A DNA stretch of 24,361 nt, taken from positions 1-24,361 of the forward strand of contig DASSSG010000213.1 in NCBI GenBank assembly GCA_035708545.1, in the 5' to 3' direction. The stretch is from Bryobacteraceae bacterium. Lineage in GTDB: Bacteria; Acidobacteriota; Terriglobia; Bryobacterales; Bryobacteraceae. Every line of letters starts with the position of its first letter. Position 1 is the stretch's first letter. The notes beneath the pieces are model-generated. The model did no database searches. It was given only the letters and a program-made list of their open reading frames with translations, and was not told where the DNA came from. This document shows, in pieces, positions 10,801-24,359 of this stretch. The translations under genes were made by a program, and so were the position numbers.

Positions 10801-11258
10801 ATGGCTTGCGTGGTCGCCAGGCGCAGCGCTTCCTCATCTCGCCCGCCGGGCGGAAGATGCGTGAGGTCGGTCACGCTCAGCGGTATCGCGAGTGCGGGCG
10901 CGATAATCTGTACCGGCTCGCCGTTCACCGTTCCGAAGGTCGTGCGCAGGGCTTCGTGGCGGCGCACAATTTCGTTGAGACTGCGTTCGAGCGCACGAAC
11001 ATTGAGCCACGCTTTCCAGTGAAATGCGTTGTCGACGTTGTAGAACGCGCTCCCGCCCGCGAGCTGGTCCAGAAACCAAAGGCGCTCCTGAGCAAACGAC
11101 AGCGGCGGCGCGGTCGAGGGCTCACGGCGCGGGATCGGCGCGAGCGCCGAGTCCCGGCCCTCCTGCTTCAGCAGCCTTGAGAGCAGATCGCGCTTGCCCT
11201 GAGGCAGGGCCGCGATCCGTTGCGCGGCCGCCGTGCGGATCTTCGTGTTGGGGGTCAT
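7818..11258 (-). CDS. NRPS module C-A-T, proline-like specificity, no TE
   Basis: C: PLSFAQERLWFL and HHIVADGWS. A: YTSGSTGVPKG, FDVSFQE, NQYGPTE, YKTGD, RIELGEVE and SGKLDR. T: NFFELGGHSL. Manually extracted pocket code DVQFIAQVVK. ATGA overlaps at both ends. Confidence 0.95.
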   Translation of the reverse strand: MTPNTKIRTAAAQRIAALPQGKRDLLSRLLKQEGRDSALAPIPRREPSTAPPLSFAQERLWFLDQLAGGSAFYNVDNAFHWKAWLNVRALERSLNEIVRRHEALRTTFGTVNGEPVQIIAPALAIPLSVTDLTHLPPGGRDEEALRLATTQAIQPFDLAKGPLVRAGVVRLSDDDHLFLLTIHHIVADGWSMGVLFRELMALYAAFAEGKPSPLPELPIQYADFAVWQRQRLQGEVLEEQLRYWKRQLDGLPVLELPTDRPRPPVERYVGSHLNIRLPERLSDAVRALARREGTTLFITLLTAFQILLHRYSGQNDIVVGSPMANRTRREIEGLIGFFVNTLVMRVNLSGNRTFRDALQRVREVALGAYAHQDLPFERLVQELQPERNLSRNPLFQVLFQVFSTGTGADACAGRPAPEPGSFDVAKGTSIVDLGFHLFEGSGAIEGSIEYSTDLFDRATIARMVGHFQTLLEAIVEHPDRRISELPLLTELERRQVLMDWNTTAAEYPRTSTVEQLFEAQVERTPNAVALRFGGRELTYRELSRRANQVARYLHRLGAGPGPLVALCAERSFEAIVGLLGILKARAAYVPLDAAYPNERLAFMLSDSRATVLLTQEELTKRLPASEARVVCLDRDWPEIARESAEDVESGADSNSLAYVMYTSGSTGVPKGVEMPHRALVNLITWQLRTTALAAPARTLQFSPLSFDVSFQEIFTCLCSGGTLVLVSEEQRRDARELLRLIADSGVERLFLPFVALRQLAELGAGSGIVPTALREVITAGEQLLVTPEIVLWFERLDGCVLSNQYGPTEAHVVSEFRLTGAPRQWPGVPPVGRPIANARLYILDRFGSPAPVGVPGELHIGGDCVARGYRNQPELTAERFTSDPFSESPGARLYKTGDRARYLPDGNIEFLGRIDTQVKLRGYRIELGEVETALTHHPSVRQAVCTVLEDAPGAQRLVAYVLMHEGAAASPAELRIFVAEKLPEYMVPSAIVQLDTFPLTASGKLDRRALPRPGTNRAVDGAPPVPVSTATEVNLAGIWAGVLKLQTIGANDNFFELGGHSLLATQVVSRIRDVFRVDLPLRTLFENPRLDALARAIDEHTSQGASPAGSIPHITEQTPDLNQLSDADVDVLLRRLLQDDAQEMKQ

Positions 11259-12181
11259 TTCGGTTTGCTAAGCCGCAGAATGCGATAGCTCAGAACGCCG
11301 GATTGCATGTCGCGATAAACCTGCGAGCCGGGCATGCTGAGGAACTCGCCAACCACTTCGAACCGGTTCCGGTCTCCACCGAATGCCTGGAAACGGGCGG
11401 GCGAAGACTCGTCACACGCCAGGAGCACGTTATGCGTGATGTCCCGGTCCACTTCCACCTGGAGCCCTGTAGCGCGCAGCCAAACGAACCACCTGGCGGA
11501 GAAATCGGCCGGCATGCAGTCGCTGTACAGAAACTTGCCGCCGGGCTTCAGCAGCCGGAAGACTTCCTTATAAAAAGCCTCGACGTCCAGGTAGTGATTT
11601 GAGGATTCCAGGTTGGTCACAACGTCGAAGTACCCGCTGCGGAACGGCAGTTGCTCGGCGTCGGCCTGTACGAACGATACGTTCGCATACTTGTGCGTCC
11701 GCTGGCAGTACGCGATCGGCCCGAAGGACAGATCAGCTCCGACGAAGCTTCGTGGCTTGAAGTATTCCTCTGCGACGAAGACGACGGCGCCGCGGCCGCA
11801 ACCGACATCCAGTATGTTCAGCCCGTCGATCGGGCAATCGCCGATGAGTTCAAGCACCAGACGGACGGCGTTCTTGCCGAGCAACCGTTCGGGTAATCGG
11901 ACCACCGAGTACTCCGGGCTGCCGTCCGGCACATAACCCAGATTCATGAAACACGCGTATCGTCCGACGGGCGTCGAATCGAGTTGCCGGCTGGCGGTGT
12001 CATAGAGGCGCTGGGTGACCGCGCGCAATTCGGCTGGAGAACGCGGATCTCCGAATTCGAGGGGCTCGGGCGCCTCGGCGGCCACCGGCGAAGCCGACCG
12101 GCGCGCCACCAGCCGCTCGAAGCACTCGCGTTTCTCGGGAGTGAGTTTAGCCAGGCGCGACAATACATCGTGCGACATCAT
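11255..12181 (-). CDS. Stand-alone class I SAM-dependent methyltransferase (probable O-methyltransferase, phthiotriol/fatty-acid O-MT-like) with N-terminal docking-like helix
   Basis: FMNLGY, ILDVGCGRG, GADLS, FVQADAEQLPF, FDVVTNLESSNHY and LLKPGG. ATGA overlaps with the PKS and the NRPS. Confidence 0.88.
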   Translation of the reverse strand: MMSHDVLSRLAKLTPEKRECFERLVARRSASPVAAEAPEPLEFGDPRSPAELRAVTQRLYDTASRQLDSTPVGRYACFMNLGYVPDGSPEYSVVRLPERLLGKNAVRLVLELIGDCPIDGLNILDVGCGRGAVVFVAEEYFKPRSFVGADLSFGPIAYCQRTHKYANVSFVQADAEQLPFRSGYFDVVTNLESSNHYLDVEAFYKEVFRLLKPGGKFLYSDCMPADFSARWFVWLRATGLQVEVDRDITHNVLLACDESSPARFQAFGGDRNRFEVVGEFLSMPGSQVYRDMQSGVLSYRILRLSKPK

Positions 12182-15100
12182 CCCTGTGACTCCTGATGTT
12201 TCGCGAGTAACGCTTTGACTTCGCTCTCAGGAAGCCCCTCCACGAAATCGAGCAGCTCTGCGATCCTGCTCTCTTCCTCCGGCGCGGCCGCGGTCTCAAT
12301 CGCAGCAGCGACCGCCGCGACCGTCGGGGCCTGAAAGAGCTGATGTACCGGTAAGTCCACGCCGAACTTCTCACGGAATCGCGAAATCATCTGGATGGCA
12401 AGAAGGGAGTGGCCGCCGAGATCGAAAAAGTTATCGTGAATGCCGACGGGCTCGATGCCGAGCAGATCCTGCCATACTTCAGCGACCACCCGTTCACGAT
12501 CGTCGCGAGGAGCAAAGTACTCGTTGACTAATGTGGGCCGCGGATGCCGAGGAACGCCGGCGGGTGGTTTCGCGTCGAGGGTGTACTCGCTCGGCTCCGC
12601 CCACAGCCACTGGTTCATGCGGGCATCGGGATCTCCGGTGGCCACGACCACTTGCCCCGGCAGGTGCTCCAGAACGCGTCGAAAAGCCGCGACCGCTTCG
12701 TCCGCCGAGAGCTCATCAGAGTCCCCGGAGCGACGAGCACTGTGGGGAAACACCCACTCGTCCCAGTTCACGCTTGTCCACGGCGCCGTGCCGGCAGAGT
12801 TGTGGCGAGCCGCGAAGGCATCCAGGAAGTTGTTCGCTGCCGAATACGCTGCAAATCCGGCTCCCACCTGAAACGACGCGAACGAGGAGAGCAGAACGCA
12901 GAAGTCGACTCCCGGTTCGAGAAGCGCCTCGAGGATCATCGCTCCCCGCGCCTTCGAGCCGAAGTGTTCCTCACAGCTGTCTCGGCTGAGCTGCGTCAAT
13001 GGGACGAACGCTTCGGGCGAGATCTGTCCAGCCGCATGGATCACGCCGTGCAGTTCGCCAAAACGCTCATAGATCGCGGCCAGCGCCGCCCCCATCTGGT
13101 CTGCGTCGGAGACGTCGGCGGTCAACACTAACACCGTCCCGCCGAGCTGCTCGATCTGCAGCAGCCGCCGGATCTTGCTGCTGACGTCGTCCTCGCCATG
13201 CAGTGCGAGCCAGGGCTCCCATTCATGCCGCTCGGGAAATGCCGAGCGGCCACTCAGGACAACCCTGGCTTGCACGGAACGCGCAAGCTCCTCGGCAAGG
13301 GCGAGTCCGATCTGTCCCAACCCGCCGGTGATCCAATATACGCCGTTCAGCCGCAGTGTCCTGGGTCTCTCGGCCGGGGCAGCAAGCGGGAGCTGCTCGA
13401 AACCCTGGACGAGGCGGGTTTCGCCGCGGTATGCGACCACCGTGTCCCGTTCCGCTGAGGTCAACTCCGCAATGATACTGTTGGCCACGCCGTCGTCCAG
13501 GGCGACGTCGATGCTGCAACACCGGATTGCAGGATATTCGTACGCCGCCACGCGGCAGACCCCCAGCAGAGTCGCTTTGCCGGGATGCAGCCGCTCGTCT
13601 TCGAGCAGTGCGTGGAGATGGTTTGACACGATTCCGACCTGAATGTGATTCAGGAGATTTTGTCTTTCGAGCGCCTGTACCAGAGCAACCACACTGTAGA
13701 AGCCGAACTCCTGGCACTCGTCAAAGGACGTCTCCTCGGCGGCCACAGTCCAGAGATGTGCGACAACGTCGGGCAGGCGGTCAGTGATCCGAAGTTCGTC
13801 GAGCAGGCTCTCATAATCTTTGCGGTCGGCGGGGCGCACGGCAAAGGCTTCGCTGCCCAGGCGGGCGTACTCGGTGCCAGGCATCACGACGATATTGGTG
13901 TGTCCCAGTTGCTCGAGTTGTCTGACCATAGCCGGCCCGACCCCGCAAGCATCGGCGAGGATCAGCCAACGCAGCGGCCGGCCGGCATTGTCGAGACGGT
14001 CGTTTGCGAGTGGGGAGACCTGCCATGAGGGTATGTAGAGCCAATCGGCCACATCCCGCCCGGGGCCGACTTCGGCCGCATCCGCCTCTGCGGCTTGCTC
14101 CGGCACGCCGATCCAATAGGTCTGCCGTTCGTACGGATATGTCGGCAGCTCGATCCGTCGGCGAGGCTCGCGGGAATGAACGGCCGGCCAGTCAGGCGTG
14201 ATGCCATTCAGCCACAGTCGGCCAAGCGCTTCGAACAATACTGCGGATTCCGCCTGTCTGTCTTGTGCCCCCGGCATGGACGTGAGCACTGTCTGACCTG
14301 ACCAACTGTCCTGCTGCTGCCGCAAGAGCATGCCGAGTGTGCGTCCGGGTCCGACTTCAAGGAACACGCGCTCGCTATCCGTCAGCAGTTCGCGCAGTCC
14401 ATCGGAGAAACGGACCGTTTGGCGAACGTGCCATCCCCAGTAGCTCGGGTCGCGCGCCTCATCGGGCGTGATCCATGTGCCCGTGACATTCGAAATATAC
14501 GGGATCTGCGGTGCGTTGAGACTGATGTTCTGCACCCGTTCGGTGAATTGCCAGACGATCGGCTCCATCATCGCAGAGTGGAACGCGTGCGATGTGTGCA
14601 GCCGCTTTGCCGCGATGCCCGCAGCAGCGAGCTGCCCGGCTGCCGCATCGATCGCGCCTGCAGGCCCGGAGAGCACAATCAGCGAGGGCGCGTTCACGGC
14701 CGCCACACTGATGCCGTTCGTGAGCAACGGCTGCGCTTCCGCCTCCGAGAGCGATACCGCCAGCATCGCCCCTGTGGGCATAGTGTCCATCAGCCGCCCG
14801 CGCGCCGCCACGAGGGCCACAGCGTCCTCAATGGAGAGCACGCCCGCCAGACACGCGGCCACCCACTCACCAATGCTGTGGCCTGTCATCGCCGCCGGAT
14901 AGATTCCCCACGACATCCACAGCGCGGCCAACGCGTACTCGATCGTAAATAGTGCCGGTTGTGCAATGGCTGTGCGCTGAAGCCTCTCATCCCACAGCTG
15001 CGGCGGGGCAGCGGAGGACGAACCGGCGTCGGCGGGGTACAGCAGTTCGCGCAGGTCCACGCGCAAATGCGGACGGAACAAGTCGGCGCAGGCATCGAGA

Positions 15101-16788
15101 GCTTCCTGGAAGGTGGGTTCAGTCCCGTAAAGCTCCTGGCCCATACCGATGTATTGCGTGCCCTGGCCCGGAAAGAGGAACACGACGGGACGGTTCTTCG
15201 CATCGGTTACCGCGGTGAAAACGCGCTGGGGATCGCGCTGCTCCAGAGCTGTGACCGCATCCATGGGATCGAATGACGAGCAAACCACAGCGCGGCGGTG
15301 GGCGAAGGGCTTCCGGCCCACCTGGGTCGTGTACGCAACATCGGGGATCGAGATGTCCTCGTGCCGGGCCAGGTGAGCGGCGAGATTATCCGTCGCGTTC
15401 TCGAGCGCTTGCTCGCCTCGGGCGGAGAGCAGGATCAGCTGCGAAGCGCGGGTAACCGCCGGCGCCTCTGCCGGAGGCGCCTCTTCCAGGATCACATGTG
15501 CGTTCGTTCCACCGACGCCGAATGCGCTTACGCCTGCGCGTCGCGGTCGGCCGTCAGACTGCCACTTCTTCAACGCGCTATTCACATAGAACGGGCTTTT
15601 ATCGAAATCGATCTTCGGATTCGGCTTTGTGAAGTTCAGGCTCGCCGGCAGCAGCTTATGTTCGAGTGACAGCACCGTCTTGATCAGGCCCGTAACGCCG
15701 GCCGCTGCGTCCAGATGCCCGACGTTGCTCTTCACCGAACCGATCGCGCAGAAGCCCCGCTCAGGCGTGCTGGCGCGGAACACTTCGGTGAGGGCGGTGA
15801 TCTCGATTGGATCGCCAAGCGGTGTAGCCGTACCGTGTGTCTCGACGTAGCTGATGGTGGCCGGATCGACGCCGGCCATAGCCTGCGCCATTGCGATCAC
15901 CTGCGCCTGCCCTTCGACACTCGGGGCCGTGTAACCGACCTTGCCCGAGCCGTCATTGTTGACAGCCACGCCGCGGATGATTGCGCGGATGTTGTCGTTA
16001 TCGCCCAGCGCATCGGAAAGCCGCTTCAGCAGAACCAGGCCGACACCGTTGCCGCCCCAGAAACCCTGCGCGGAGGCATCGAACGGACGGCAATGGCCAT
16101 CGGGGGAAACGATACCGCCAGGCTGGTAGTAATAGCCTTTGCGCTGTGGGACGTGAATGGCGGCGCCGCCCGCGAGCGCCATATCGCACTGGTAGCTCCA
16201 CAGGCTGTGACACGCCATCGCCACGGCCACCAGGGAAGTTGAGCAGGCCGTCTGCACCACGACGCTCGGGCCCCTGAGGTTCAACTTGTATGACACCCGG
16301 GTCGCAAGGTGATCCTTGTCATTCGCCACCATCAACTGGAATTCATCGACGAGTCCCAGCCGGTCTCCGGCGAACAGGAGGTTATAGAGATAGCTGCTGG
16401 CCGCGGTGCCGGCGAAAACACCGATAAGGCCCGGATACGACTCTGGGTTGTATCCGGCGTTCTCTATGCATTCCGAGGCGCATTCCAGGAAGATCCGGTG
16501 TTGCGGGTCGGTGATCTCGGCCTCGCGCGCGCTGAAGCCGAAGAATGAGGCGTCAAACCGGTCGACTCCGTCGAGAATGCCGCCCGCGTTGACATAGTTC
16601 GGATCAGCGATGATCGCGGGATCGACGCCCGCGGCCTCCATCTCCTCGGGGGAGAAGCGCGAGGAGCATTCCACACCCCGCCGGAGGCTGTCCCAGAACT
16701 GCTCCACGTTGCGAGCGCGGGGAAACCGCCCGCTCATGCCGATGATCGCAATGCTCTCGACTGCTGAATCCTGTTTGCCGTTATCCAT
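12178..16788 (-). CDS. Type I PKS module KS-AT-KR-ACP (malonyl-CoA extender; no DH or ER)
   Basis: KS: VQTACSTSL (Cys 16243-45), ETHGTAT and SNVGHL. AT: GHSIGE (Ser 14875-77) and HAFH. KR: TGGLGQIG, K, SS and YSAAN (Tyr 12844-46). Carrier: NFFDLGGHSL. Confidence 0.95.
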   Translation of the reverse strand: MDNGKQDSAVESIAIIGMSGRFPRARNVEQFWDSLRRGVECSSRFSPEEMEAAGVDPAIIADPNYVNAGGILDGVDRFDASFFGFSAREAEITDPQHRIFLECASECIENAGYNPESYPGLIGVFAGTAASSYLYNLLFAGDRLGLVDEFQLMVANDKDHLATRVSYKLNLRGPSVVVQTACSTSLVAVAMACHSLWSYQCDMALAGGAAIHVPQRKGYYYQPGGIVSPDGHCRPFDASAQGFWGGNGVGLVLLKRLSDALGDNDNIRAIIRGVAVNNDGSGKVGYTAPSVEGQAQVIAMAQAMAGVDPATISYVETHGTATPLGDPIEITALTEVFRASTPERGFCAIGSVKSNVGHLDAAAGVTGLIKTVLSLEHKLLPASLNFTKPNPKIDFDKSPFYVNSALKKWQSDGRPRRAGVSAFGVGGTNAHVILEEAPPAEAPAVTRASQLILLSARGEQALENATDNLAAHLARHEDISIPDVAYTTQVGRKPFAHRRAVVCSSFDPMDAVTALEQRDPQRVFTAVTDAKNRPVVFLFPGQGTQYIGMGQELYGTEPTFQEALDACADLFRPHLRVDLRELLYPADAGSSSAAPPQLWDERLQRTAIAQPALFTIEYALAALWMSWGIYPAAMTGHSIGEWVAACLAGVLSIEDAVALVAARGRLMDTMPTGAMLAVSLSEAEAQPLLTNGISVAAVNAPSLIVLSGPAGAIDAAAGQLAAAGIAAKRLHTSHAFHSAMMEPIVWQFTERVQNISLNAPQIPYISNVTGTWITPDEARDPSYWGWHVRQTVRFSDGLRELLTDSERVFLEVGPGRTLGMLLRQQQDSWSGQTVLTSMPGAQDRQAESAVLFEALGRLWLNGITPDWPAVHSREPRRRIELPTYPYERQTYWIGVPEQAAEADAAEVGPGRDVADWLYIPSWQVSPLANDRLDNAGRPLRWLILADACGVGPAMVRQLEQLGHTNIVVMPGTEYARLGSEAFAVRPADRKDYESLLDELRITDRLPDVVAHLWTVAAEETSFDECQEFGFYSVVALVQALERQNLLNHIQVGIVSNHLHALLEDERLHPGKATLLGVCRVAAYEYPAIRCCSIDVALDDGVANSIIAELTSAERDTVVAYRGETRLVQGFEQLPLAAPAERPRTLRLNGVYWITGGLGQIGLALAEELARSVQARVVLSGRSAFPERHEWEPWLALHGEDDVSSKIRRLLQIEQLGGTVLVLTADVSDADQMGAALAAIYERFGELHGVIHAAGQISPEAFVPLTQLSRDSCEEHFGSKARGAMILEALLEPGVDFCVLLSSFASFQVGAGFAAYSAANNFLDAFAARHNSAGTAPWTSVNWDEWVFPHSARRSGDSDELSADEAVAAFRRVLEHLPGQVVVATGDPDARMNQWLWAEPSEYTLDAKPPAGVPRHPRPTLVNEYFAPRDDRERVVAEVWQDLLGIEPVGIHDNFFDLGGHSLLAIQMISRFREKFGVDLPVHQLFQAPTVAAVAAAIETAAAPEEESRIAELLDFVEGLPESEVKALLAKHQESQG

Positions 16789-19700
16789 GATGAGCCGACC
16801 TCGCCTGTAGCTGCTTTCTGACCCGGACGATGGCTTCCCGCTGTTTCGCCGCGCGCTCCGTGAAGTCCGCCGCCGGCACGCCCTCTTCCTGAGCAGTCAG
16901 GAACTTCGCGAGGGAGCCAACGGTCGGATAGCGGAACAAATCGATGATCGAGAACTCCGCCGCGATCACGTCACGCAGCCTGACGTGGAGGCGGTAGAGC
17001 ATCATCGAATGGCCGCCGAGATCGAAGAAGTTATCATCGACGCCGACGGCGGGCATTCCGAGTACTTCCCGCCACACGCCGGCGATCTTCCTCTCCAACT
17101 CATTTCGAGGCGCGCCGGACGCCCCGTCGGCCCGCGACCTGGCCTGATCGGGCAGGGGGAGGGCGCGCCGATCCACTTTCCCATTCGGTGTGAGGGGCAG
17201 CGAGTTCAGCAATACGACTGCGGCTGGAACCATGTATTCGGGAAGGCGGCTCCTCAGGTAGTCCTTGAGCGCCGGTGTGAGTTTTTCGACGAGCTGCGCC
17301 TGGAGCGGATTGTTGGTCCAGGCGCTCCAGTTCGGCGCGGCGGAGCGCGCCGGAACAGCGGCGGCGGGCGATAAAGCCTCCGTGTGCCGCCTGAACAGCA
17401 CGTCGTACTCAGGGCCGGCGCCATGGCCGGACCAACTGATCGAGACGTGGCAGTCCAACTCCTTCTCGAGCGCCCAGAAGTCGTGCGGGTCTACGCCGTC
17501 TCGTTTGAGTTTGTTCAGGCTCCGTTTTATCTCGCCGACGGTGAGCGGGCAATCGTCCGACCACAGCAGGTCGGCCGCGCGCACGTCTGTCTCGACACGT
17601 GCGTTGGGCACTCGCGTTATGGCGAGCGCATCGAGACCGCACTCGCGCACCAGGTCGCGCACGGTCGTGAGGCTTCGCACCTCTGCCCAGTCGAGCGACG
17701 GCGGCTCGGGAGCGCCGGCGGCGGGCCCCGCGGTCAGGACGCAGTCATAACGGTACCGCGTGAGCTCGTTATGAAACCGGCCGCGTTTCAACTGCACTTC
17801 GATGCCGCCGACGCGTGAGATTCGCTGGCCCAGGGCAAGAAACAGTGCCGGATCGACAAGCAGCTCTTCTTCGCTGTGCAGCCGCCGTTCGATGCGTTGC
17901 CGCAACTCCCTGGCGAGCATTCCGTCCGGGGCCCGGTGCAGTTCCACCGCGGTTCGGAATGCCTTCAGCAGCGGCAGGCCGCGGATATCTCCAACGAAGA
18001 CGTACCCGCCGTCGCGGGTTGTCTCGACGGCTCCTTCGAGCACCCGCAGGAGGTATTCGGCGTCGGAGAAGTATTGCACGACCGAGTTCAGCACAACGAC
18101 GTCAAACGCGCGCCGTGAGATCAATTCGAAATCGTCCGCCGTGCGTTCGAGGAGCGTCACGTTGGTGAGTCCCCGAGGCGCCAACTGACGTCGCACATGG
18201 TCGAGCGACACCCGGGAGAAATCGGTGCCCACGTATTCGTCACAGTGCGGCGCGATACGAAACAGCAGCAATCCGGTCCCACATCCGATCTCCAGAACCC
18301 TGCGGGGCCGTAATTGCAGGATGCGTTGCGAGGCGTGCTCGACCTGCTCGCGCATCTCCGCCTCCGGAATCGGCAGGCCGGTGTAACTGCTGTTCCAGCC
18401 GGCAATGTGAAAAGCGCCGTCGTGGGGCGGAGCGGCTTCGCTCATCGTCTGGTCGAAGACCTTGCGCCACTGCGCGACCTGGTCGGACGATGCGAGCCCC
18501 TCCATCGCGCCCGCACCGCGCGCATCCGGCACAACATAGGCGACAACCCGCTTTTCGCCGTACGCCTCCTCACGTGCCACGATTACCGCCTCTCTAACGG
18601 CGGGATGCTGGCGCAAATTCGATTCGATCTCACCGAGTTCGATGCGGAACCCGCGGATCTTGACCTGGTCATCCGTGCGGCCAAGGAATTCGAGATTGCC
18701 ATCGGCGCGCCAGCGCACGAGGTCGCCGGTTCGGTACAGGCGTGCGCCTTCGCGCGGGTCGAACGGATGCGGAATGAACTTCTCGGCCGTCAGTTCCGGG
18801 CGATTCAGGTAACCGCGCGCAAGACCGTCCCCGCTGATATGCAGTTCGCCCGGCACTCCGATCGGCACTGGCTGGAGATGCGCGTCGAGCACGTAAACTC
18901 GTTTGTTCGAGATCGGCCGCCCGAGCGGCGGCTCGCCCGCAGAGCCGCCGGCCAGGAGCGGTGCGCAGGTCGTAACCACCGTATCCTCGGTCGGACCGTA
19001 ATGGTTGAACACGGAGAACGGCAATCCGCTGCGCGGCCAGTGCTGCAAACGGTCGCCTCCGGTAAGCAGGCCGCGGAGGCGCACTCCGCCGGTCCAGGAC
19101 AGCTCGAGGACTGCCTCGGCGAGCGGCGTCGGCAGGAAGCAAAGTGTGATTCGCTCCGCCGTCAGCCATCTCACCAGCCCCGGCGGCGAAGCCAGCGTCG
19201 CTTCGCCGGGAATGTGGAGACTGGCGCCGCGCGCCAGATACGGCCAGATCTCCCACACGGACGCGTCGAAGGCGGGACTCGCGATCAGCGTGGCGCGGTC
19301 CTCGTGCGTGACGCTATAGGCCCGGTGGTGCCACGCGACAAGGTTGAGCAAACCGCCGTGCTCGATCTCCACTCCGCGCGGCGTGCCGGTGGAGCCGGAC
19401 GTATAGATGACATACGCACGGCTGGAGGTTGACAGCGCAGAATCACACTCACTGTCAGCCAGAGCCGGCCCGTCCGCCGGTGCCTCATCCAGGCAGACAC
19501 GCTCGAAGCCGCCCTCAGGCAGCTTGTCCAGGAACCTTCGTACCGTCAGTACAACCGGGGTCTTTGTGTCGGCGAGCATGAACGCCAGCCGCTCACGCGG
19601 ATACGCCGGGTCGAGTGGTACGTATGCGGCTCCTGCCTTGAGCACGCCTAAGACGGCGATTACAAGTTCAAGCGACCGCTCCAGACACACCGCGACCAGC

Positions 19701-21376
19701 GAATCGCCTCCGACGCCACGATCGAGGAGATGGCGTGCGATCTGGCCGGCGCGCCGGTTCAACTCGGAATACGTGAGACTGCGGTCCTGCTGGACCACGG
19801 CAATCGCCGACGGATCGCGACGTGCCTGATCGGCCACGAGCTGATGGACACAGCGGTCGCGGCTGTACGCTCGTGCGGTCGCGTTCCACTCGTCGAGCAA
19901 CCGTGCCTGCTCGGAAACACTCAGCAGCGGCAGCTCCGACAGCCTGCGATCGGGGTGTGCGGCAATCGCCGCGATCAGCACGTGAAAATTCGCGGCGAGG
20001 CGGGCAATCGTGTCATCCTCAAAAAGGTCGGTGCTGTATTCGAACTGACCGTTCAGGCCTCCCGGAGTCTCAAGCAAATCGAACCGCAGGTCGAACTTCG
20101 CGGTTCCCAGTTCCACCTGGGGCGCGGGCGGCAGCTCCTCAGCCGGTTCGGCGCCCGTCGATGGCGGCCCACTTAGCAGCTGGAACGTTACCTGGAATAG
20201 CGGATTTCTGCTGACGTCGCGCTCCGGCCGCAATTCCTCCACCAGTTTTTCGAACGGCACATCCTGGTGTGCGTATGCCGCCAGTGCGACCTGCTTTGCT
20301 CGCCGAAGCGCCTCTCGAAACGTTGGATCGCCAGACACGTCGATGCGCATCACCAGTGTGTTGACGAAGAACCCGATCAGCCCCTCGAGTTCCTCGCGAT
20401 TGCGATTCGCTATGGGTGCGCCGATGACAATGTCGTCCTGCCCCGTGTAGCGATGCAGCAGCTCCGCGAACGCAGCCAGAAGCGTGATGAACAGGGTAGT
20501 GCCCTCGCGCTGCGTCAGCGCCGTCAGCCGGCCCAGCTCAGGATCGCGAATCTCGATCTCCCGGCGAGCGCCGCGGAAGCTCGGCACCGCCGGCCGCTGA
20601 CGATCAGCGGGCAACTGCAGCACGGGCAGATTCGCGAGTTGCCTTTTCCAGTAGCTCAGTTGCTCGTCGAGGACCTCACCGCTGAGCCATTCCCGTTGCC
20701 ACACTGCGAAATCGGCGTACTGAATCGGCAGTTCCGGAAGAGGCGAAGCCTGGCCCATCGCGAACGCACCATAGAGCGCGGTCAGCTCGCAGAAGAACAC
20801 GTCCATCGACCAGCCGTCGCAAACGATGTGGTGCATCGTGAGCATGAATACGAACTCCTGCTCCGAACATCTGACGAGTGCGACACGGACCAGCGGATCG
20901 CGTGAGAGATCGAAAGGGGCGTATGTCTGTTCGAGTGCAAGGCGCGCTATCTCGGCTTCCCTCTCCTCGCGCGGCATCTCCGTGAGGTCGATGAGTGGCA
21001 TCGACAGGCGGAGAGAGGGCGCGATGACCTGCCGGGGCTCGCCGTCGATAATGCGGAATGTGGTGCGTAACGCCTCGTGGCGTCGCACGATCTCGTTCAG
21101 GCTTCGCTCCAGCACTGCGGGATCGAGCGCAGCTTCCACTCGGAACGTGCTGGTTTCGTTGTATGATGACGAGCCCGGCATCAACTGATCGAGAAACCAC
21201 AGCCGTTGCTGGGCAAATGAGAGCGGCGCAGGCCCTGGCTGTGTACGCCGCGGAATAGAATTCGACTGGCGTCCCTCGCCGCGCAACCTCTTTTCGAGCA
21301 AGGCACGCTTCACCGCCGAAAGCTCCGGCCTGGCTGGAGTCGCCTGTTCTGACTTGCTTCCGCCCACGGCGCTCAT
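16781..21376 (-). CDS. NRPS module C-A(N-methyltransferase inserted between A8 and A9)-T, leucine-type specificity
   Basis: C: HHIVCDGWS. A: YTSGSTGTPRG, FDASVWE and NHYGPTE; manual pocket code DAWFLGHVVK. N-MT (about 17303-18484): GWNSSYTG.PIP, LEIGCGTGLL and NSVVQYF. T: NFFDLGGHSM. The stop overlaps the PKS start by 8 nt. Confidence 0.95.
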   Translation of the reverse strand: MSAVGGSKSEQATPARPELSAVKRALLEKRLRGEGRQSNSIPRRTQPGPAPLSFAQQRLWFLDQLMPGSSSYNETSTFRVEAALDPAVLERSLNEIVRRHEALRTTFRIIDGEPRQVIAPSLRLSMPLIDLTEMPREEREAEIARLALEQTYAPFDLSRDPLVRVALVRCSEQEFVFMLTMHHIVCDGWSMDVFFCELTALYGAFAMGQASPLPELPIQYADFAVWQREWLSGEVLDEQLSYWKRQLANLPVLQLPADRQRPAVPSFRGARREIEIRDPELGRLTALTQREGTTLFITLLAAFAELLHRYTGQDDIVIGAPIANRNREELEGLIGFFVNTLVMRIDVSGDPTFREALRRAKQVALAAYAHQDVPFEKLVEELRPERDVSRNPLFQVTFQLLSGPPSTGAEPAEELPPAPQVELGTAKFDLRFDLLETPGGLNGQFEYSTDLFEDDTIARLAANFHVLIAAIAAHPDRRLSELPLLSVSEQARLLDEWNATARAYSRDRCVHQLVADQARRDPSAIAVVQQDRSLTYSELNRRAGQIARHLLDRGVGGDSLVAVCLERSLELVIAVLGVLKAGAAYVPLDPAYPRERLAFMLADTKTPVVLTVRRFLDKLPEGGFERVCLDEAPADGPALADSECDSALSTSSRAYVIYTSGSTGTPRGVEIEHGGLLNLVAWHHRAYSVTHEDRATLIASPAFDASVWEIWPYLARGASLHIPGEATLASPPGLVRWLTAERITLCFLPTPLAEAVLELSWTGGVRLRGLLTGGDRLQHWPRSGLPFSVFNHYGPTEDTVVTTCAPLLAGGSAGEPPLGRPISNKRVYVLDAHLQPVPIGVPGELHISGDGLARGYLNRPELTAEKFIPHPFDPREGARLYRTGDLVRWRADGNLEFLGRTDDQVKIRGFRIELGEIESNLRQHPAVREAVIVAREEAYGEKRVVAYVVPDARGAGAMEGLASSDQVAQWRKVFDQTMSEAAPPHDGAFHIAGWNSSYTGLPIPEAEMREQVEHASQRILQLRPRRVLEIGCGTGLLLFRIAPHCDEYVGTDFSRVSLDHVRRQLAPRGLTNVTLLERTADDFELISRRAFDVVVLNSVVQYFSDAEYLLRVLEGAVETTRDGGYVFVGDIRGLPLLKAFRTAVELHRAPDGMLARELRQRIERRLHSEEELLVDPALFLALGQRISRVGGIEVQLKRGRFHNELTRYRYDCVLTAGPAAGAPEPPSLDWAEVRSLTTVRDLVRECGLDALAITRVPNARVETDVRAADLLWSDDCPLTVGEIKRSLNKLKRDGVDPHDFWALEKELDCHVSISWSGHGAGPEYDVLFRRHTEALSPAAAVPARSAAPNWSAWTNNPLQAQLVEKLTPALKDYLRSRLPEYMVPAAVVLLNSLPLTPNGKVDRRALPLPDQARSRADGASGAPRNELERKIAGVWREVLGMPAVGVDDNFFDLGGHSMMLYRLHVRLRDVIAAEFSIIDLFRYPTVGSLAKFLTAQEEGVPAADFTERAAKQREAIVRVRKQLQARSAHHG

Positions 21377-21380
21377 AACT

Positions 21381-24359
21381 TCATCGTGCTCCTTGCAGCA
21401 GATTTTGGGCGTGCTCCTCGCTCAGGCCGCCGATCTCCTTCAATAACGCGTCTTCAATCACTTCAGCCAGACCGGCGATCGTCGGCGACTGGAAGATGTG
21501 CTGCAGCGGCAGCTCGACCTGGAAGACCTTGCGCACGCGCGACATGAGCTGCGTCGCCATGAGCGAGTGACCGCCGAGCTCGGTGAAGAAGTTATTGTGT
21601 ATTCCGACCTGTTTGAGTCCCAGCAACTCACACCAGATGCTGGCCAGCTGCTCCTCAGCCGCGGTACGCGGACCGACGAACCGCTCTTCTGGATCGGACC
21701 AGTTCCGGTCTGGACCGGGCAGACTCCGCCGATCCACTTTGCCGTTCGGAGTTCTGGGCAAGGCGTTCAGGACGAGAAAAGCCGCGGGCGCCATGTGAGC
21801 GGGAAGCCGCTCGCCAAGGTAGCTGGCCAGCATCGGCCCGAGGTCCTGGGCTTTTTGCCCGGCCAGAGGATTGTTCGCATACGCCGTCCACGGTTTTGAC
21901 GCGGGCTTTGGCCGGGCCGGAAAATCGGCGACGCGCGGGCCGTCCGATGCGGAGCTTAAAAACAACGCGTTGAAGTCCGCCTCGGACGCCGAATACGCCC
22001 AACCGACCAGAACATCCCTGCCCAGCCCACGTCCGAGCGCCCAGAATGCCTCCGGCTCGACACCACGTCCGGCCAGTGTGGATACCGCCTCCTTCAACTC
22101 GGCGGCTGTCGAAGGCCCGTATGGATCGGCCAGCAACTCCAAAGCCCCCACGGCGGCCGAAAGCCGCGCATTGGGGACGCCGGTCACCAGAACATCGCCT
22201 GTGGCAGCATCCGTCAGCGCTTCCCCCAAAGCGGCGGCGCTGCCGAGGCGAGCCCATTCGAGGACCTGCACTTCGCTGGCACGGGCAGGCGAATGGCCGA
22301 TGCGAAGCGCGACATCGTACCGGAATATCGTGAGCTCGTTGTGATATTGTCCGCGCTTGAGCTGCTGCTCGACAGCTCCGATCCGCGGATTGCTCGCCGC
22401 AAATGCGGTGAAGAAAGCGGGATCGAGCAGCAGTTCCCGTTCCTGCGCCATGCGCTGTTCTACTCTCTGCCGCAGATGCGACAGCGGAAGAGAGCCCGGC
22501 ACCCGGTCGAGCTCTAACGAGGTAAGAAACGCCTTTGCCAGCGGCAGAGCGCGGACATCTCCCACAAAGACAGTTCCGCCGTCCGACAGCACCTGCACCG
22601 CGCCGTTGAGAACGCGCAGCAGGTATTCCACGCTCGGGAAATACTGCACGACCGAGTTCACAATGACGAGGTCAAACGCACCTTCCTCGAGTCCCTCGAA
22701 GTTCTCGGCGGAGCGCTCGAGCAATTCCACCTGCGCCAGAAGGAGGCGGTCTGCCTCGCGGCGCACGTGCGCCAGCGCGGCTGCCGAGAAGTCCGTTGCC
22801 ACATATCGCGAGCAGTACGACGCGATGCGGAAAAGCAAAAGCCCCGTGCCGCAGCCGATTTCCAGTACCCGGCGGGGATGGAGCCGAAGGATCCGTTCCA
22901 CCGTTCGGTCGACTTGCTCCTGCATCTCCGCAGTCGGGATAGGCAGCCCGGTGTAGCTGCTGTTCCAGCCGATGGTATTGAACGTCGGATCCGGCTGCGG
23001 ATTCGGTTGAAGGTAGATGTCATCGTACAATTCCCGCCAGCGGGCGACCTGCTCGGCACCCGGCGCATCCTCCTGCGCAAAGAGCGCGCGGTAAAACGGA
23101 TTCGCTCTGAAGGGTGCGCGTTCGTAGTACGAGCAGTAGTCGAATGCAATCTCTTCCCCGCTTTTCCGCACGAGTGCGCCACGCATTCGGTAATCCGGCG
23201 TCCAGCCGTTGTCGCTGGGTGCGGCGGCAAAGACTGCGCGGATCGAATCACCTTCCTCGACGGGCACACCGGGGTAGAAAACGGGGAAGAACACGGGGAG
23301 CCATGTGTATTCGCGGCTAAGCACGTCGATCAGCTCCTCACGGTCGGGCCACAGGTTCAGCCAGAGCAGGAATCCATCGAGTCGTGAAGCCTTGTTGATG
23401 GTCAGGCTGATGTCGCGTTCGTATGCCGGCGTGATGTGCGCGGTGAAATCCAGTTCCTCGGCCACAGCGGAGTTCGACAGGATATGCGAGTGCGGCAGAT
23501 TCTTCACACACACTCTCACGTCGAATGGATGTCCGACCTTTTCGAAGATCTTCTGCGTGTAGTGAGACGTCATGTCGCCGAACTTCGGACGGCCTGCAAG
23601 CGCGTCGGGCAGCGAGACGGCGGCGATCTTTGTTTCGCTTCGCCAGGGGATCATAACGCCCCCCGGCTTCAGAAAGCGCCACGCATTGTTGAGCAGCGGA
23701 ACGACGCCCTCGGAAGACGCGATAGTGCCGATCAGCTCGGACACGCATACGTCGACTTTTTCGGGAAGCTCAACTTCGAGAGAGTCGCCGTGGATGAGCG
23801 TAACCCTGTCTTCGAGCCCCAGGCTGCGGATCAGCGTGCGCGCCCCTTCGAACGAGTCATCGAGCATCTCGATTGCATACACGCGTTCAGCGCCGGCTTC
23901 GGCACAGATGCGCGCCAGAATCGCGTCCCTTCCCGTGCCGATATCGACGACAGTCTTGCCCCGGACCACGCGCTCAATGGCGGCTCGGTAGGCCGCGATG
24001 CGCGGTTCATCGTGCGTCATAGCGTAGTAGAGCAGCTCATCGTATATGAAGTACTCGCCCACCGAGGGCCACAGTTCCGGCTGTTTCCCGACGGGCACCA
24101 CGTAAGCGACGAGCACAGCGTCGCTTCGCTCCTCGTCGGTGCGCGCGACGACAACCGCGTCCTCAACGGCCGGATGGTCTTTCAGGTGTGCCTCGATTTC
24201 GCCGAGCTCGATCCGAAAGCCCCGTACCTTGACCTGCTGATCGACTCGGCCCATGTATTCAAGGGCGCCGTCCCTGCGGTAGCGGGCCAGGTCTCCAGTC
24301 CGGAACAAGCGGCTGCCTTCTTCGTCAGAGAACGGGTTCGCTATGAATTTGGCTCGCGT
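21381..24359 (-). CDS. NRPS, 5'-truncated: A(C-terminal part) interrupted by PRMT-like MT plus backbone N-MT, then A-subdomain and T
   Basis: The frame is open to the window edge (TRAKFIANPFSDEEGSRLFRTGD). A7/A8 motifs are followed by MT1 (about 23079-24080), MT2 (about 21864-23057), NGKVDR and T NFFTELGGHSL. Confidence 0.93.
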   Translation of the reverse strand, partial: TRAKFIANPFSDEEGSRLFRTGDLARYRRDGALEYMGRVDQQVKVRGFRIELGEIEAHLKDHPAVEDAVVVARTDEERSDAVLVAYVVPVGKQPELWPSVGEYFIYDELLYYAMTHDEPRIAAYRAAIERVVRGKTVVDIGTGRDAILARICAEAGAERVYAIEMLDDSFEGARTLIRSLGLEDRVTLIHGDSLEVELPEKVDVCVSELIGTIASSEGVVPLLNNAWRFLKPGGVMIPWRSETKIAAVSLPDALAGRPKFGDMTSHYTQKIFEKVGHPFDVRVCVKNLPHSHILSNSAVAEELDFTAHITPAYERDISLTINKASRLDGFLLWLNLWPDREELIDVLSREYTWLPVFFPVFYPGVPVEEGDSIRAVFAAAPSDNGWTPDYRMRGALVRKSGEEIAFDYCSYYERAPFRANPFYRALFAQEDAPGAEQVARWRELYDDIYLQPNPQPDPTFNTIGWNSSYTGLPIPTAEMQEQVDRTVERILRLHPRRVLEIGCGTGLLLFRIASYCSRYVATDFSAAALAHVRREADRLLLAQVELLERSAENFEGLEEGAFDLVIVNSVVQYFPSVEYLLRVLNGAVQVLSDGGTVFVGDVRALPLAKAFLTSLELDRVPGSLPLSHLRQRVEQRMAQERELLLDPAFFTAFAASNPRIGAVEQQLKRGQYHNELTIFRYDVALRIGHSPARASEVQVLEWARLGSAAALGEALTDAATGDVLVTGVPNARLSAAVGALELLADPYGPSTAAELKEAVSTLAGRGVEPEAFWALGRGLGRDVLVGWAYSASEADFNALFLSSASDGPRVADFPARPKPASKPWTAYANNPLAGQKAQDLGPMLASYLGERLPAHMAPAAFLVLNALPRTPNGKVDRRSLPGPDRNWSDPEERFVGPRTAAEEQLASIWCELLGLKQVGIHNNFFTELGGHSLMATQLMSRVRKVFQVELPLQHIFQSPTIAGLAEVIEDALLKEIGGLSEEHAQNLLQGAR

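What the first reader, a model, noticed from the sequence alone, without database searches (positions are those of the whole stretch)
12178..21376. Module pair predicted to build an N-methyl-statine / dolaisoleuine-like unit
Seen: Leu-type code DAWFLGHVVK plus an N-MT, followed by KS-AT(HAFH)-KR with intact catalytic residues and no DH, then a probable O-MT and a Pro-like module. Known: Leu + malonyl + ketoreduction gives statine (the aspartic-protease inhibitor motif). N-methyl-Ile treated likewise and O-methylated is dolaisoleuine, which precedes a Pro-derived unit in dolastatin 10. Inference: the product contains N-methyl(-O-methyl)-statine followed by Pro/Pip, suggesting a protease- or tubulin-directed scaffold. 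The KR has neither a clear LDD nor a W fingerprint, so stereochemistry is unpredicted.
Basis: partly seen in the sequence, partly recalled or inferred. Interest (0 to 1): 0.68.

Follow-up and report, generated by a model that had tools for sequence, protein, structure and literature searches.

The report
N-methyl-statine-type NRPS-PKS module pair
Two coupled genes of an uncultured soil acidobacterium encode an N-methyl-leucine-type peptide module and a ketoreducing polyketide module that should build a gamma-(N-methylamino)-beta-hydroxy (probably beta-methoxy) acid, a known kind of building block in an uncharacterised gene cluster.

Summary
On the minus strand, 21376-16781 encodes C-A(N-MT)-T with pocket code DAWFLGHVVK. 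That is one residue from the commonest Leu code, and its nearest solved pocket is McyB A1. 16788-12178 encodes KS-AT(GHSxG/HAFH)-KR-ACP with all catalytic residues, no DH and no LDD or W fingerprint.

The genes are joined by ATGA-type overlaps to a 308-aa methyltransferase and a C-A-T module with code DVQFIAQVVK (Pro-like). The methyltransferase's nearest characterised relatives, by profile and by fold, are the mycobacterial phthiotriol O-methyltransferase and fatty-acid O-MT.

In about 60 related loci, 45 of 59 copies of this methyltransferase with a readable neighbour follow a DH-less KS-AT-KR-ACP module. Some are fused to it. Eleven follow NRPS modules instead, so beta-O-methylation is likely but not settled.

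A 95%-identical soil contig supplies the missing upstream part: a standalone TE and a C-A-(PRMT-like)-(N-MT)-T module. It shows no loading module.

The predicted N-methyl(-O-methyl)-statine unit is well supported as a prediction. The dolastatin, tubulin and protease analogy is only local: there is no second PKS after Pro and no Val-type neighbour. Verdict: a new member of a known kind, of moderate interest.

The earlier scan notes retrieved were all on this same window; none concerned other DNA.

The parts
16781..21376 (-). NRPS gene P0001: C-A(N-MT)-T elongation module (1531 aa)
   Evidence: ORF and translation. Pfam domains. The whole A-MT-A region aligns in one stretch with the solved interrupted A domain 5wmm, E 5.5e-148.
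19895..21229 (-). Condensation domain of P0001 (residues 50-494; MHHIVCDGWS)
   Evidence: Pfam PF00668, 391 bits. The His motif is visible in the translation.
18512..19834 (-). Adenylation domain, N-terminal part up to a8 (residues about 515-955); pocket code DAWFLGHVV
   Evidence: Pfam PF00501. Code. The pocket region is most similar to McyB A1 (8hlk), whose aligned residues read DAWFLGNVV.
17222..18499 (-). N-methyltransferase inserted between a8 and a9 (residues about 960-1385; VLEIGCGTG, NSVVQYF, NELTRYRYD)
   Evidence: Pfam methyltransferase families at 1007-1132. It keeps 48 of 53 columns that are >=95% conserved in 15 homologous N-MT domains.
16898..17089 (-). Thiolation domain of P0001 (residues 1430-1493; LGGHS)
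   Evidence: Pfam PF00550, 58 bits.
12178..16788 (-). PKS gene P0002: KS-AT-KR-ACP (1536 aa); its start overlaps the stop of P0001
   Evidence: Junction sequence.
15631..16758 (-). Ketosynthase (residues 11-386) with Cys in TACSTS, His in HGTAT and His in NVGH
   Evidence: Pfam PF00109 and PF02801. Motif positions. It keeps 102 of 102 conserved columns. Best solved relatives are hybrid or cis-AT KS-AT didomains such as 8xjy and CurL 4mz0.
14254..15183 (-). Acyltransferase (residues 536-845) with GHSIGE and HAFH (malonyl-type motif)
   Evidence: Pfam PF00698. Motifs. That HAFH indicates malonyl-CoA is established knowledge and was not assayed.
12754..13920 (-). Ketoreductase: structural subdomain (957-1106) and catalytic subdomain (1149-1345); no DH between AT and KR
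   Evidence: Pfam PF21394 and PF08659. Nothing else is found in 840-1150 at E<=1. NADPH motif and K/S/Y/N present, no LDD or W. Nearest solved KRs are StsA 6ulw, MlnE 5d2e and PksJ 4j1q.
12298..12489 (-). ACP (residues 1434-1497; LGGHSL), followed by a C-terminal docking-like tail (to 12181)
   Evidence: Pfam PF00550, 68.9 bits. Tail sequence.
11255..12181 (-). Standalone class I SAM methyltransferase P0004 with an N-terminal docking-like helix; probable O-methyltransferase for the beta-hydroxyl
   Evidence: - Pfam.
- NCBIfam nearest families: phthiotriol dimycocerosate O-MT at 132.6 bits and Mtf2 at 120.8 bits, both below cut-off.
- AF2 model, pLDDT 86.7. Best Swiss-Prot fold hits are the same two families, TM 0.74/0.83, 30% identity.
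- 45 of 59 family copies with a readable neighbour follow KR-ACP.
7818..11258 (-). NRPS gene P0005: C-A-T, code DVQFIAQVV (Pro-like), C-terminal docking-like tail, no TE
   Evidence: Pfam. Code. Nearest solved pocket is GrsB1 8p5o. DVQFVAQVVK is listed as Pro for a Tem22 homologue in PMC9113097.
21381..24359 (-). 3' part of the upstream NRPS gene: A(a7-a8), PRMT-like MT, N-MT, a9-a10, T
   Evidence: Translation and Pfam. The full-length 1856-aa homologue (91% identity) is in L015, starts with a C domain and has code DVLDxGMIS.

Best explanation
P0001 and P0002 are consecutive subunits of a hybrid NRPS-PKS assembly line in an uncultured Bryobacteraceae-like soil bacterium.

Proposed steps:
1. 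P0001 condenses the incoming peptidyl chain onto a leucine-type aliphatic amino acid. It has adenylated that residue, loaded it on its T domain and N-methylated it with the methyltransferase embedded in its A domain.
2. The KS of P0002 takes over this N-methyl-aminoacyl/peptidyl thioester and extends it with malonyl-ACP loaded by its own HAFH-type AT.
3. The KR reduces the beta-keto group. With no DH, the ACP then carries a 4-(N-methylamino)-3-hydroxy-6-methylheptanoyl unit, i.e. the N-methyl-statine skeleton.
4. The next gene product, a methyltransferase with the same N-terminal docking-type helix as the NRPS subunits, most probably O-methylates the 3-hydroxyl while the chain is on the ACP. 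That would give the leucine isomer of dolaisoleuine.
5. The chain then passes to a proline-type C-A-T module.

Shown here: domain content, intact motifs, gene coupling, nearest relatives, and recurrence of the KS-AT-KR-ACP plus methyltransferase cassette.

Inferred: substrate identities, the timing and site of the extra methylation, KR stereochemistry, colinear order, and the product.
For: - Domain architecture and motifs.
- The A pocket is one residue (N322H) from DAWFLGNVVK. PMC12283262 names that code the most commonly encountered one in its Leu group, and all four Leu-activating domains of the scytocyclamide cluster carry it (PMC7524897).
- The interrupted A domain aligns end to end with the solved A-MT-A protein 5wmm.
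- Share of columns that are >=95% conserved in homologues and are kept here: N-MT 48/53, KR 23/25, KS 102/102, AT 54/56.
- ATGA-type overlaps link P0001, P0002, P0004, P0005 and the next ORF.
- A soil metagenome contig that is 95% identical in DNA keeps all these genes intact and in the same order.
- Methyltransferase, nearest relatives: by profile and by fold, the phthiotriol O-MT and Mtf2. By established knowledge the phthiotriol enzyme methylates a secondary alcohol on a polyketide-derived lipid.
- Methyltransferase, context: 45 of 59 family copies with a readable neighbour follow a DH-less KS-AT-KR-ACP, and about 15 appear fused to the ACP; fusion was verified in G013, a 1781-aa KS-AT-KR-ACP-MT protein.
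- The N-terminal helix motif is nearly invariant across the methyltransferase family.
- Pro reading for P0005.
- The same biosynthetic logic is proposed for dolaisoleuine in aetokthonostatin (PMC10556625).
Against: - No biochemical data exist, and the code DAWFLGHVVK itself was not found in the searchable literature.
- The same code occurs in three related clusters (L016, L017, L019) in N-MT modules that are followed directly by a methyltransferase of this family, with no PKS. Either the family is not restricted to KR-derived hydroxyls, or this A domain's residue carries or acquires a methylatable group.
- The methyltransferase tree is unresolved and does not place P0004 in a clean after-PKS clade.
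- P0004 scores far below the curated cut-offs of its nearest families.
- KR stereochemistry cannot be read.
- All three NRPS subunits start with ordinary C domains. No loading module lies on this contig or on the 29.4-kb relative contig, so the order of subunits and the position of the unit in the product rest on colinearity only.
- An IS630-type element sits at the 3' end of the operon.
Confidence: 0.6

Rival explanations
1. The module pair makes free N-methyl-statine with the 3-OH retained, and P0004 methylates something else. Candidates are a carboxylate (Mtf2-like ester formation), the alpha-carbon of the beta-ketoacyl intermediate before reduction, or a side chain of a neighbouring residue.
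For: Eleven copies of the methyltransferase family follow NRPS N-MT-T modules with no KR-derived hydroxyl, including modules with the same DAWFLGHVV code. The second-nearest characterised family is a carboxyl O-methyltransferase, Mtf2. The tree does not separate the context classes.
Against: Every KS-AT-KR-ACP gene in the related clusters that is followed by a readable gene, except L003, is followed by this methyltransferase, and fused forms exist. The top fold and profile match is the secondary-alcohol O-MT of phthiocerol synthesis. No relationship closer than to O-MTs was seen with PKS C-MT domains in the sequence or fold searches.
Confidence: 0.25
2. The A domain of P0001 does not load leucine. 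It loads another residue (Ile, Val, a non-proteinogenic aliphatic acid, or a hydroxylated Leu), so the unit is a different gamma-amino-beta-hydroxy acid.
For: Position 322 is His instead of the Asn of the canonical Leu code. The exact code has no literature record. In L016, L017 and L019, modules with this code are followed by an O-MT-like enzyme.
Against: Nine of ten code residues and the whole pocket segment match the Leu-type McyB A1 best among solved structures, E 5.3e-49 against 6.6e-34 for the next. Ile and Val codes in the same cluster family look different: DAFFLGVTF and DAFWIGGTF. Leu codes are also used where 3-OH-Leu is made after loading (PMC7524897).
Confidence: 0.2
3. The genes are real, but the line is not colinear or not functional in this genome. 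Reasons would be the missing loading module, the IS630 insertion, and subunit order set by docking rather than gene order. In that case the predicted neighbours of the unit, basic residue before and Pro after, would be wrong.
For: All NRPS subunits begin with elongation-type C domains. No loader is present within the 29.4-kb relative contig. Three similar C-terminal tails and four similar N-terminal helices allow other pairings. An IS630-type transposase lies next to the last gene. The only other NRPS piece in the MAG is FAAL-(T)-C on contig C843, and its linkage is unproven.
Against: ATGA overlaps through the operon and 95% conservation with intact frames in an independent soil sample argue for a functional, co-translated set. 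The P0001 tail and the P0002 KS head are adjacent and overlapping, so at least the pair itself is almost certainly consecutive.
Confidence: 0.15
4. The cluster makes a dolastatin-10 or auristatin-like tubulin binder.
For: There is only a local resemblance: an N-methyl aliphatic residue, malonate, a KR and a methyltransferase, followed by a Pro module.
Against: No PKS follows the Pro module, so no dolaproine can be made. No Val/Ile-type upstream module is present; the relative's upstream A code is DVLDxGMIS with a PRMT-like domain. No terminal Phe-derived module is present. The extra genes (RiPP-type rSAM methylase, GGT-like) are foreign to the aes description.
Confidence: 0.03

Closest known systems
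Dolaisoleuine-forming steps of the aetokthonostatin (aes) and dolastatin 10 pathways in cyanobacteria (PMC10556625)
   Same: An N-methylating NRPS module for a branched aliphatic amino acid, followed by a malonate-extending PKS with KR and no DH. Standalone class I SAM methyltransferases are held responsible for O-methylation. A Pro module comes next.
   Different: - The code here is Leu-type, not Ile.
- The host is an acidobacterial MAG with 63% GC, not a cyanobacterium.
- Here the methyltransferase gene sits in line between the PKS and the NRPS gene and carries a docking-type helix.
- No second PKS follows Pro, so there is no dolaproine.
- The flanking modules differ.
- Sequences of the aes proteins were not available here, so homology was not measured.
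Statine-type (gamma-amino-beta-hydroxy acid) hybrid NRPS-PKS modules, e.g. didemnin isostatine, hapalosin N-methyl gamma-amino-beta-hydroxy acid, spiruchostatin/FK228-type units (from general knowledge, not tested here)
   Same: An amino-acid module handing over to KS-AT-KR-ACP without DH.
   Different: Here there is N-methylation plus a probable O-methylation. The KR belongs to a distinct subtype (HxAGxxxxxxF, LGGLG..AY) that accompanies the docked methyltransferase.
Phthiotriol/phenolphthiotriol dimycocerosates O-methyltransferase (Rv2952 family, NF045823) and fatty-acid O-MT Mtf2 (NF045825)
   Same: These are the best profile and fold matches of P0004: 30% identity and TM 0.83 by hit. By established knowledge the phthiotriol enzyme methylates a secondary alcohol on a polyketide-derived chain.
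   Different: P0004 scores 132.6 and 120.8 bits against cut-offs of 300 and 400. It has an extra N-terminal docking-like helix and linker of about 50 residues. It is encoded inside an NRPS-PKS operon.
Embedded O-MT domains of myxobacterial PKS modules (StiD/StiE; PDB 6ecx)
   Same: Beta-hydroxyl O-methylation of ACP-bound intermediates; class I fold. StiE O-MT appears among the fold hits (rank 30).
   Different: P0004 is not a specific sequence relative: there was no hit in the PDB sequence search at E<=0.001. P0004 is free-standing, or in relatives fused after the ACP, rather than placed between KR and ACP.
McyB A1 (Leu-activating A domain of microcystin synthetase, PDB 8hlk)
   Same: Same A-domain subtype (xLTGGDxL, NxYGPTE) and nine of ten code residues.
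   Different: N322 is replaced by His. Here the domain is interrupted by an N-MT.

Membership tests
NRPS elongation module with an N-MT-interrupted A domain (C-A(M)-T) | C domain with the HHxxxDG motif | tested here: met
   PF00668 at 391 bits; MHHIVCDGWS is in the translation.
NRPS elongation module with an N-MT-interrupted A domain (C-A(M)-T) | A domain with core motifs and Asp235/Lys517, with a methyltransferase inserted between a8 and a9 that has a SAM-binding motif | tested here: met
   PF00501 at 248.6 bits and a split PF13193. MT families match at 1007-1132; VLEIGCGTG is present. There is a single-stretch alignment to 5wmm.
NRPS elongation module with an N-MT-interrupted A domain (C-A(M)-T) | Carrier domain with the Ser attachment motif | tested here: met
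   PF00550 at 58 bits; LGGHS is present.
cis-AT type I PKS beta-ketoreducing module (KS-AT-KR-ACP) | KS Cys-His-His triad | tested here: met
   TACSTS at 180, HGTAT at 318, NVGH at 355. It keeps 102 of 102 conserved columns.
cis-AT type I PKS beta-ketoreducing module (KS-AT-KR-ACP) | AT with GHSxG Ser and the malonyl-type HAFH motif | tested here: met
   GHSIGE at 636, HAFH at 734. Substrate choice was not assayed.
cis-AT type I PKS beta-ketoreducing module (KS-AT-KR-ACP) | KR with an NADPH-binding Gly motif and catalytic Lys, Ser, Tyr and Asn | tested here: met
   GGLGQIG at 1155; K in GSKARG; S in LLSSFAS; Y and N in AAYSAANN.
cis-AT type I PKS beta-ketoreducing module (KS-AT-KR-ACP) | Absence of DH and ER | tested here: met
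   Only the psi-KR is found between AT and KR at E<=1. The AT-to-KR spacing is 871 nt.
A-type or B-type KR stereochemical classes (Caffrey/Keatinge-Clay fingerprints) | LDD motif (B-type), or Trp eight residues before the catalytic Tyr (A-type) | tested here: not met
   The KR has HAAGQISPEAF and Gln at position -8. A canonical HAAGVLDDG KR from a relative genome aligns as a control. The class is therefore unassignable.
Dolaisoleuine/statine-type unit-forming module pair | An aliphatic amino-acid module immediately upstream of, and coupled to, KS-AT(malonyl)-KR-ACP | tested here: met
   Overlapping stop and start. The code is one residue from Leu.
Dolaisoleuine/statine-type unit-forming module pair | O-methylation of the beta-hydroxyl (for the Dil type) | tested here: inconclusive
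   Nearest relatives are O-MTs, and 45 of 59 family copies with a readable neighbour follow KR-ACP. However, 11 follow NRPS modules and the tree is unresolved.
Dolaisoleuine/statine-type unit-forming module pair | The product contains the gamma-amino-beta-oxy acid | not testable with these tools
   This needs expression and MS/NMR.
Dolastatin 10 / aetokthonostatin-type cluster | A second KR-containing PKS after the Pro module (dolaproine) | tested here: not met
   P0005 is C-A-T and is followed by a 185-aa ORF and a radical SAM enzyme.
Dolastatin 10 / aetokthonostatin-type cluster | A Val/Ile-type module directly upstream of the Dil modules | tested here: not met
   The upstream module has a PRMT-like MT plus an N-MT. 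In the 91%-identical homologue its code is DVLDxGMIS.
Phthiotriol dimycocerosates O-methyltransferase (NF045823 equivalog) | Score at or above the curated cut-off (300 bits) | tested here: not met
   132.6 bits. It is the nearest family but P0004 is not a member.
Pro-activating A domain | Code of the type DVQ(L/F/Y)(I/V)AHVVK | tested here: inconclusive
   The code is DVQFIAQVV, with H322Q. The nearest solved pocket is GrsB1. DVQFVAQVVK is listed as Pro for a Tem22 homologue (PMC9113097). No assay was done.

The most novel reading that the evidence does not exclude
The KS-AT-KR-ACP gene plus an in-line, docking-helix-bearing O-methyltransferase is a dedicated, widespread soil-bacterial cassette for beta-methoxy units. 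Here, combined with an N-methyl-Leu module, it would make the leucine isomer of dolaisoleuine. In that case the characteristic auristatin-type building block exists outside cyanobacteria, in a methylation-dense peptide family from Acidobacteriota and other soil phyla whose products are unknown.
Probability: 0.35. Interest if true: 0.65.

Novelty: new member of a known kind. Interest (0 to 1): 0.42.

Why it matters
Gamma-amino-beta-hydroxy or -methoxy acids are the pharmacophore-bearing units of pepstatin-type protease inhibitors and of dolastatin 10 and the auristatins.

A confident genetic recipe for an N-methyl(-O-methyl)-statine unit in an uncultured Bryobacteraceae-like bacterium gives a concrete target for heterologous expression, using the 29-kb soil contig that carries the intact operon.

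The comparative result may be the more useful one. A KS-AT-KR-ACP module followed by, or fused to, a specific methyltransferase family recurs in dozens of soil metagenome loci. This gives a testable rule for predicting methoxy groups, and a possible portable in-trans O-methylation part for engineering.

In itself the finding is a routine colinearity prediction, not a new mechanism.

Tried and rejected
1. Looked for the rest of the assembly line in the same MAG. Only contig C843 (pyruvate kinase, then FAAL-(T)-C running off the end) has NRPS sequence, and its linkage to this cluster could not be shown. The upstream genes seen in the relative contig (S8 peptidase, small ORFs, TE) are absent from the MAG.

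2. Literature search for the exact codes DAWFLGHVVK and DVQFIAQVVK gave no papers.

3. The dolastatin 10 cluster paper (PMC10915760) is not held, so comparison with that cluster rests on the aetokthonostatin and dolastatin 15 papers.

4. PDB sequence search with P0004 returned only generic Rossmann methyltransferases and was uninformative about the acceptor atom.

5. The phylogeny of the methyltransferase family, labelled by upstream neighbour, has an unresolved backbone. P0004 sits on a long branch and the after-NRPS label has at least three origins, so no clade-based functional call is possible.

6. An even sample of 400 genomes of the phylum gave only two further methyltransferase matches, both fused to a PKS. 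The family is rare in reference genomes although common in soil metagenomes.

7. KR stereochemistry fingerprints give neither class.

8. Starter-C hypothesis for the upstream NRPS: its C domain matches ordinary elongation C domains (Txo1/Txo2) best, so lipo-initiation by that domain is not supported.

Full report
WHAT IS THERE

The window is a whole 24,361-bp contig, the longest of a fragmented 4.7-Mb MAG with 63% GC and 77% completeness. Its flanking GH140 gene is 86% identical to one from a Bryobacteraceae MAG, so the organism is most likely a soil acidobacterium.

All assembly-line genes lie on the minus strand and are joined by ATGA-type stop/start overlaps. In order of transcription:
- The 3' part of an NRPS gene: A(a7-a8), a PRMT-like MT, an N-MT, a9/a10 and T (24359..21381).
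- P0001, C-A(N-MT)-T (21376..16781).
- P0002, KS-AT-KR-ACP (16788..12178).
- P0004, a 308-aa methyltransferase (12181..11255).
- P0005, C-A-T (11258..7818).
- A 185-aa ORF with no family match.
- A B12-type radical SAM enzyme, TIGR03975 at 682 bits.

An IS630-type element, a convergent GGT-like gene and an Sfp-type PPTase follow. The finding's coordinates are exactly P0001 plus P0002.

CHECK OF THE OBSERVATION

The A-domain code, read both by GrsA spacing and by column mapping in a MAFFT alignment, is DAWFLGHVV(K). Among solved structures, the pocket segment is by far most similar to McyB A1 (8hlk): E 5.3e-49 against 6.6e-34 for the next. The aligned residues of McyB A1 read DAWFLGNVV. PMC12283262 names DAWFLGNVVK the most commonly encountered code in its Leu group. 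All four Leu domains of the scytocyclamide cluster use it (PMC7524897). The only difference here is N322H.

The methyltransferase lies between a8 and a9. The whole A-MT-A region aligns in a single stretch with the solved interrupted A domain 5wmm (E 5.5e-148). It retains 48 of 53 columns that are at least 95% conserved in 15 homologous N-MT domains, and most of the five differences are conservative.

In P0002 the KS triad, the AT GHSxG and HAFH motifs, the KR NADPH motif, the KR Lys/Ser/Tyr/Asn and the ACP Ser are all in place. KS keeps 102/102, AT 54/56 and KR 23/25 conserved columns. Between AT and KR there is only the KR structural subdomain, and no DH or ER is found even at E<=1.

The KR has HAAGQISPEAF where B-type KRs have LDD, and Gln where A-type KRs have Trp. 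A canonical HAAGVLDDG KR from a related genome aligned alongside as a control. Its closest solved relatives are the StsA NRPS KR and trans-AT KRs.

THE METHYLTRANSFERASE

P0004 is a class I SAM enzyme. Against NCBIfam its best matches are the phthiotriol/phenolphthiotriol dimycocerosate O-MT (132.6 bits) and the fatty-acid O-MT Mtf2 (120.8 bits). Both are well below cut-off, so P0004 is a relative and not a member.

An AlphaFold2 model (pLDDT 86.7) gives the same answer by fold. The phthiotriol O-MT is the top reviewed-UniProt hit (TM 0.74/0.83, rmsd 2.4 A, 30% identity, E 2.5e-24). There is a gap of about six orders of magnitude in E-value to the next families, EryG and other O-MTs. In the PDB the best matches are sugar and small-molecule O-MTs, with the StiE PKS O-MT at rank 30. 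By established knowledge the phthiotriol enzyme methylates a secondary alcohol of a polyketide-derived chain, which is a close chemical analogy.

The family is large in soil metagenomes: 351 proteins at E<=1e-10, about 45% identical. It has a nearly invariant N-terminal helix (consensus RIAxLSPERRxLLERLL). The helix resembles the N-termini of the NRPS subunits here, which suggests recruitment to carrier-protein tails.

I reconstructed domain orders in 80 metagenome loci plus relatives. Of the 59 methyltransferase copies with a readable upstream neighbour:
- 45 follow KR-ACP of a KS-AT-KR-ACP gene. The AT-to-KR spacing is about 0.9-1.0 kb, so none has a DH.
- 11 follow an NRPS N-MT-T or T.
- 2 follow another copy of the methyltransferase.
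- 1 follows a TE.

About 15 copies start within about 100 nt of the ACP and appear fused to it. This was verified in G013, a 1781-aa KS-AT-KR-ACP-MT protein in a complete genome of the same family. The nearest cluster in a related genus (G004, PKS 54% identical) has the same PKS, methyltransferase and C-A-T order.

This association and the fusions argue that the enzyme serves the ketoreduced PKS product. Two caveats remain. The tree of the family is unresolved and the after-NRPS copies arose several times. In L016, L017 and L019 a methyltransferase of this family follows an N-MT module with the very same DAWFLGHVV code and no PKS. I therefore rate beta-O-methylation as probable (about 0.6), not established.

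THE PRO MODULE AND THE REST OF THE LINE

P0005's code is DVQFIAQVV. Its pocket is closest to the Pro-activating GrsB1 (8p5o). The near-identical DVQFVAQVVK is listed as Pro for a telomycin Tem22 homologue (PMC9113097). The same code closes the G004 cluster.

A soil contig (JX_forest_Scaff14798985) is 95% identical in DNA, with every gene intact and in the same order. It supplies what the window lacks:
- A standalone 265-aa thioesterase directly upstream. The line is therefore not TE-less.
- The full upstream NRPS, C-A-(PRMT-like)-(N-MT)-T, with code DVLDxGMIS. Asp at position 278 hints at a basic substrate, which is an inference.

The upstream NRPS has a C domain of the ordinary elongation type. 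No loading module lies on either contig. In the MAG the only other NRPS fragment is a FAAL-(T)-C gene on contig C843, and its linkage is unproven.

Hence the pair itself is securely consecutive. Its place in the final molecule rests on colinearity.

COMPARISON WITH WHAT IS KNOWN

The logic equals that proposed for dolaisoleuine in aetokthonostatin: an N-Me-Ile module, the KR-containing PKS AesJ, standalone class I methyltransferases, then Pro (PMC10556625). It also equals that of statine-type units in general.

It is not a dolastatin-type cluster. No PKS follows Pro, the neighbours are different, and the extra genes (a RiPP-type rSAM C-methylase, a GGT-like protein that recurs at the end of related clusters in L016-L018, and PRMT-like domains) belong to another, uncharacterised BGC family. 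Nothing here speaks to tubulin or protease targets.

VERDICT

The unit prediction is well supported, though only as a prediction. The pharmacological analogy is unsupported.

Confidence in each part of the prediction:
- A gamma-(N-methylamino)-beta-hydroxy acid is made from an aliphatic residue: about 0.75.
- That residue is Leu: about 0.65.
- The 3-OH is O-methylated: about 0.6.
- Pro is the next residue: about 0.6.

This is a new member of a known kind, of moderate interest. The recurrent KS-AT-KR-ACP plus docked or fused methyltransferase cassette is the most reusable result.

Noticed in passing
window 21381-24359 (-); L015:4426-9996; also L016, L017, L025, L028: The upstream A domain is interrupted between a8 and a9 by two methyltransferases, a PRMT5/PrmA-like one and an ordinary N-MT. 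Modules with the PRMT-like insert recur in related soil clusters. All of them have codes of the form DVxDxGMI(T/S), with Asp at position 278, which suggests a basic (Arg-like) substrate with side-chain N-methylation.
   Followed up: partly
window 2676-4241 (+); L016:12928-14607, L017:14398-16125, L018:16615-18333: A GGT-family (Ntn-hydrolase) gene sits at the end of this cluster and of at least three related clusters from other soil bacteria. It looks like a conserved pathway component, perhaps for maturation or release, rather than a neighbour by chance.
   Followed up: partly
window 5332-7230 (-): The last operon gene is a confident member of TIGR03975, 'RiPP maturation radical SAM C-methyltransferase' (682 bits, cut-off 282), inside an NRPS-PKS operon. 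Among the related loci examined it was seen only here and in the 95%-identical contig.
   Followed up: partly
L015:1104-3565 (relative contig, upstream of the TE): Upstream of the cluster in the 95%-identical contig lie an S8 peptidase and three small ORFs. Two of them (161 and 98 aa) are Tyr/Glu/Gly-rich with repeated AYYQGMxDYEASL-like units and have no family match. They could be RiPP-like substrates for the rSAM enzyme or unrelated. They are absent from the MAG assembly.
   Followed up: no
L015:3629-4426; L013:8037-9062; L018, L026, L027, L034: A standalone thioesterase gene opens this cluster and several related ones, directly before the first assembly-line gene. The apparent lack of a TE in the window is therefore an effect of the contig end.
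   Followed up: partly
L103:12212-17557 (G013); also L021, L022 and about 12 metagenome loci: Single-module PKS proteins, KS-AT-KR-ACP fused to a C-terminal methyltransferase of the P0004 family (1781 aa in G013), occur with no adjacent NRPS genes within the 20-kb region examined. They form a well-supported clade of 25 sequences. Their product is unknown.
   Followed up: partly
L016:6431-7354, L017:9001-9984, L019:9001-9951: Methyltransferases of the same family follow N-MT modules that carry the identical DAWFLGHVV code and no PKS. What they methylate is unexplained and bears on both the Leu and the O-MT assignments.
   Followed up: partly
G000 contig C843 (L001:2-2560, -): A gene starting with a fatty acyl-AMP ligase, followed by a C domain, runs off the contig end next to pyruvate kinase. 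It is the only other NRPS fragment in the MAG and a candidate lipo-initiation module for this line.
   Followed up: partly
window 4257-5308 (+): An IS630-family transposase, split into an HTH ORF and a DDE_3 ORF, lies between the convergent radical SAM and GGT-like genes. In the relative contig this element is absent downstream of the rSAM gene in the about 660 nt before that contig ends.
   Followed up: no
KR alignment of about 40 loci: KRs that precede the docked or fused methyltransferase form their own sequence subtype (HGAGxTxxxxF with a 3-residue longer loop, and LGGLGxxAY). It differs from canonical A- and B-type KRs, and its stereochemical outcome is unknown.
   Followed up: partly
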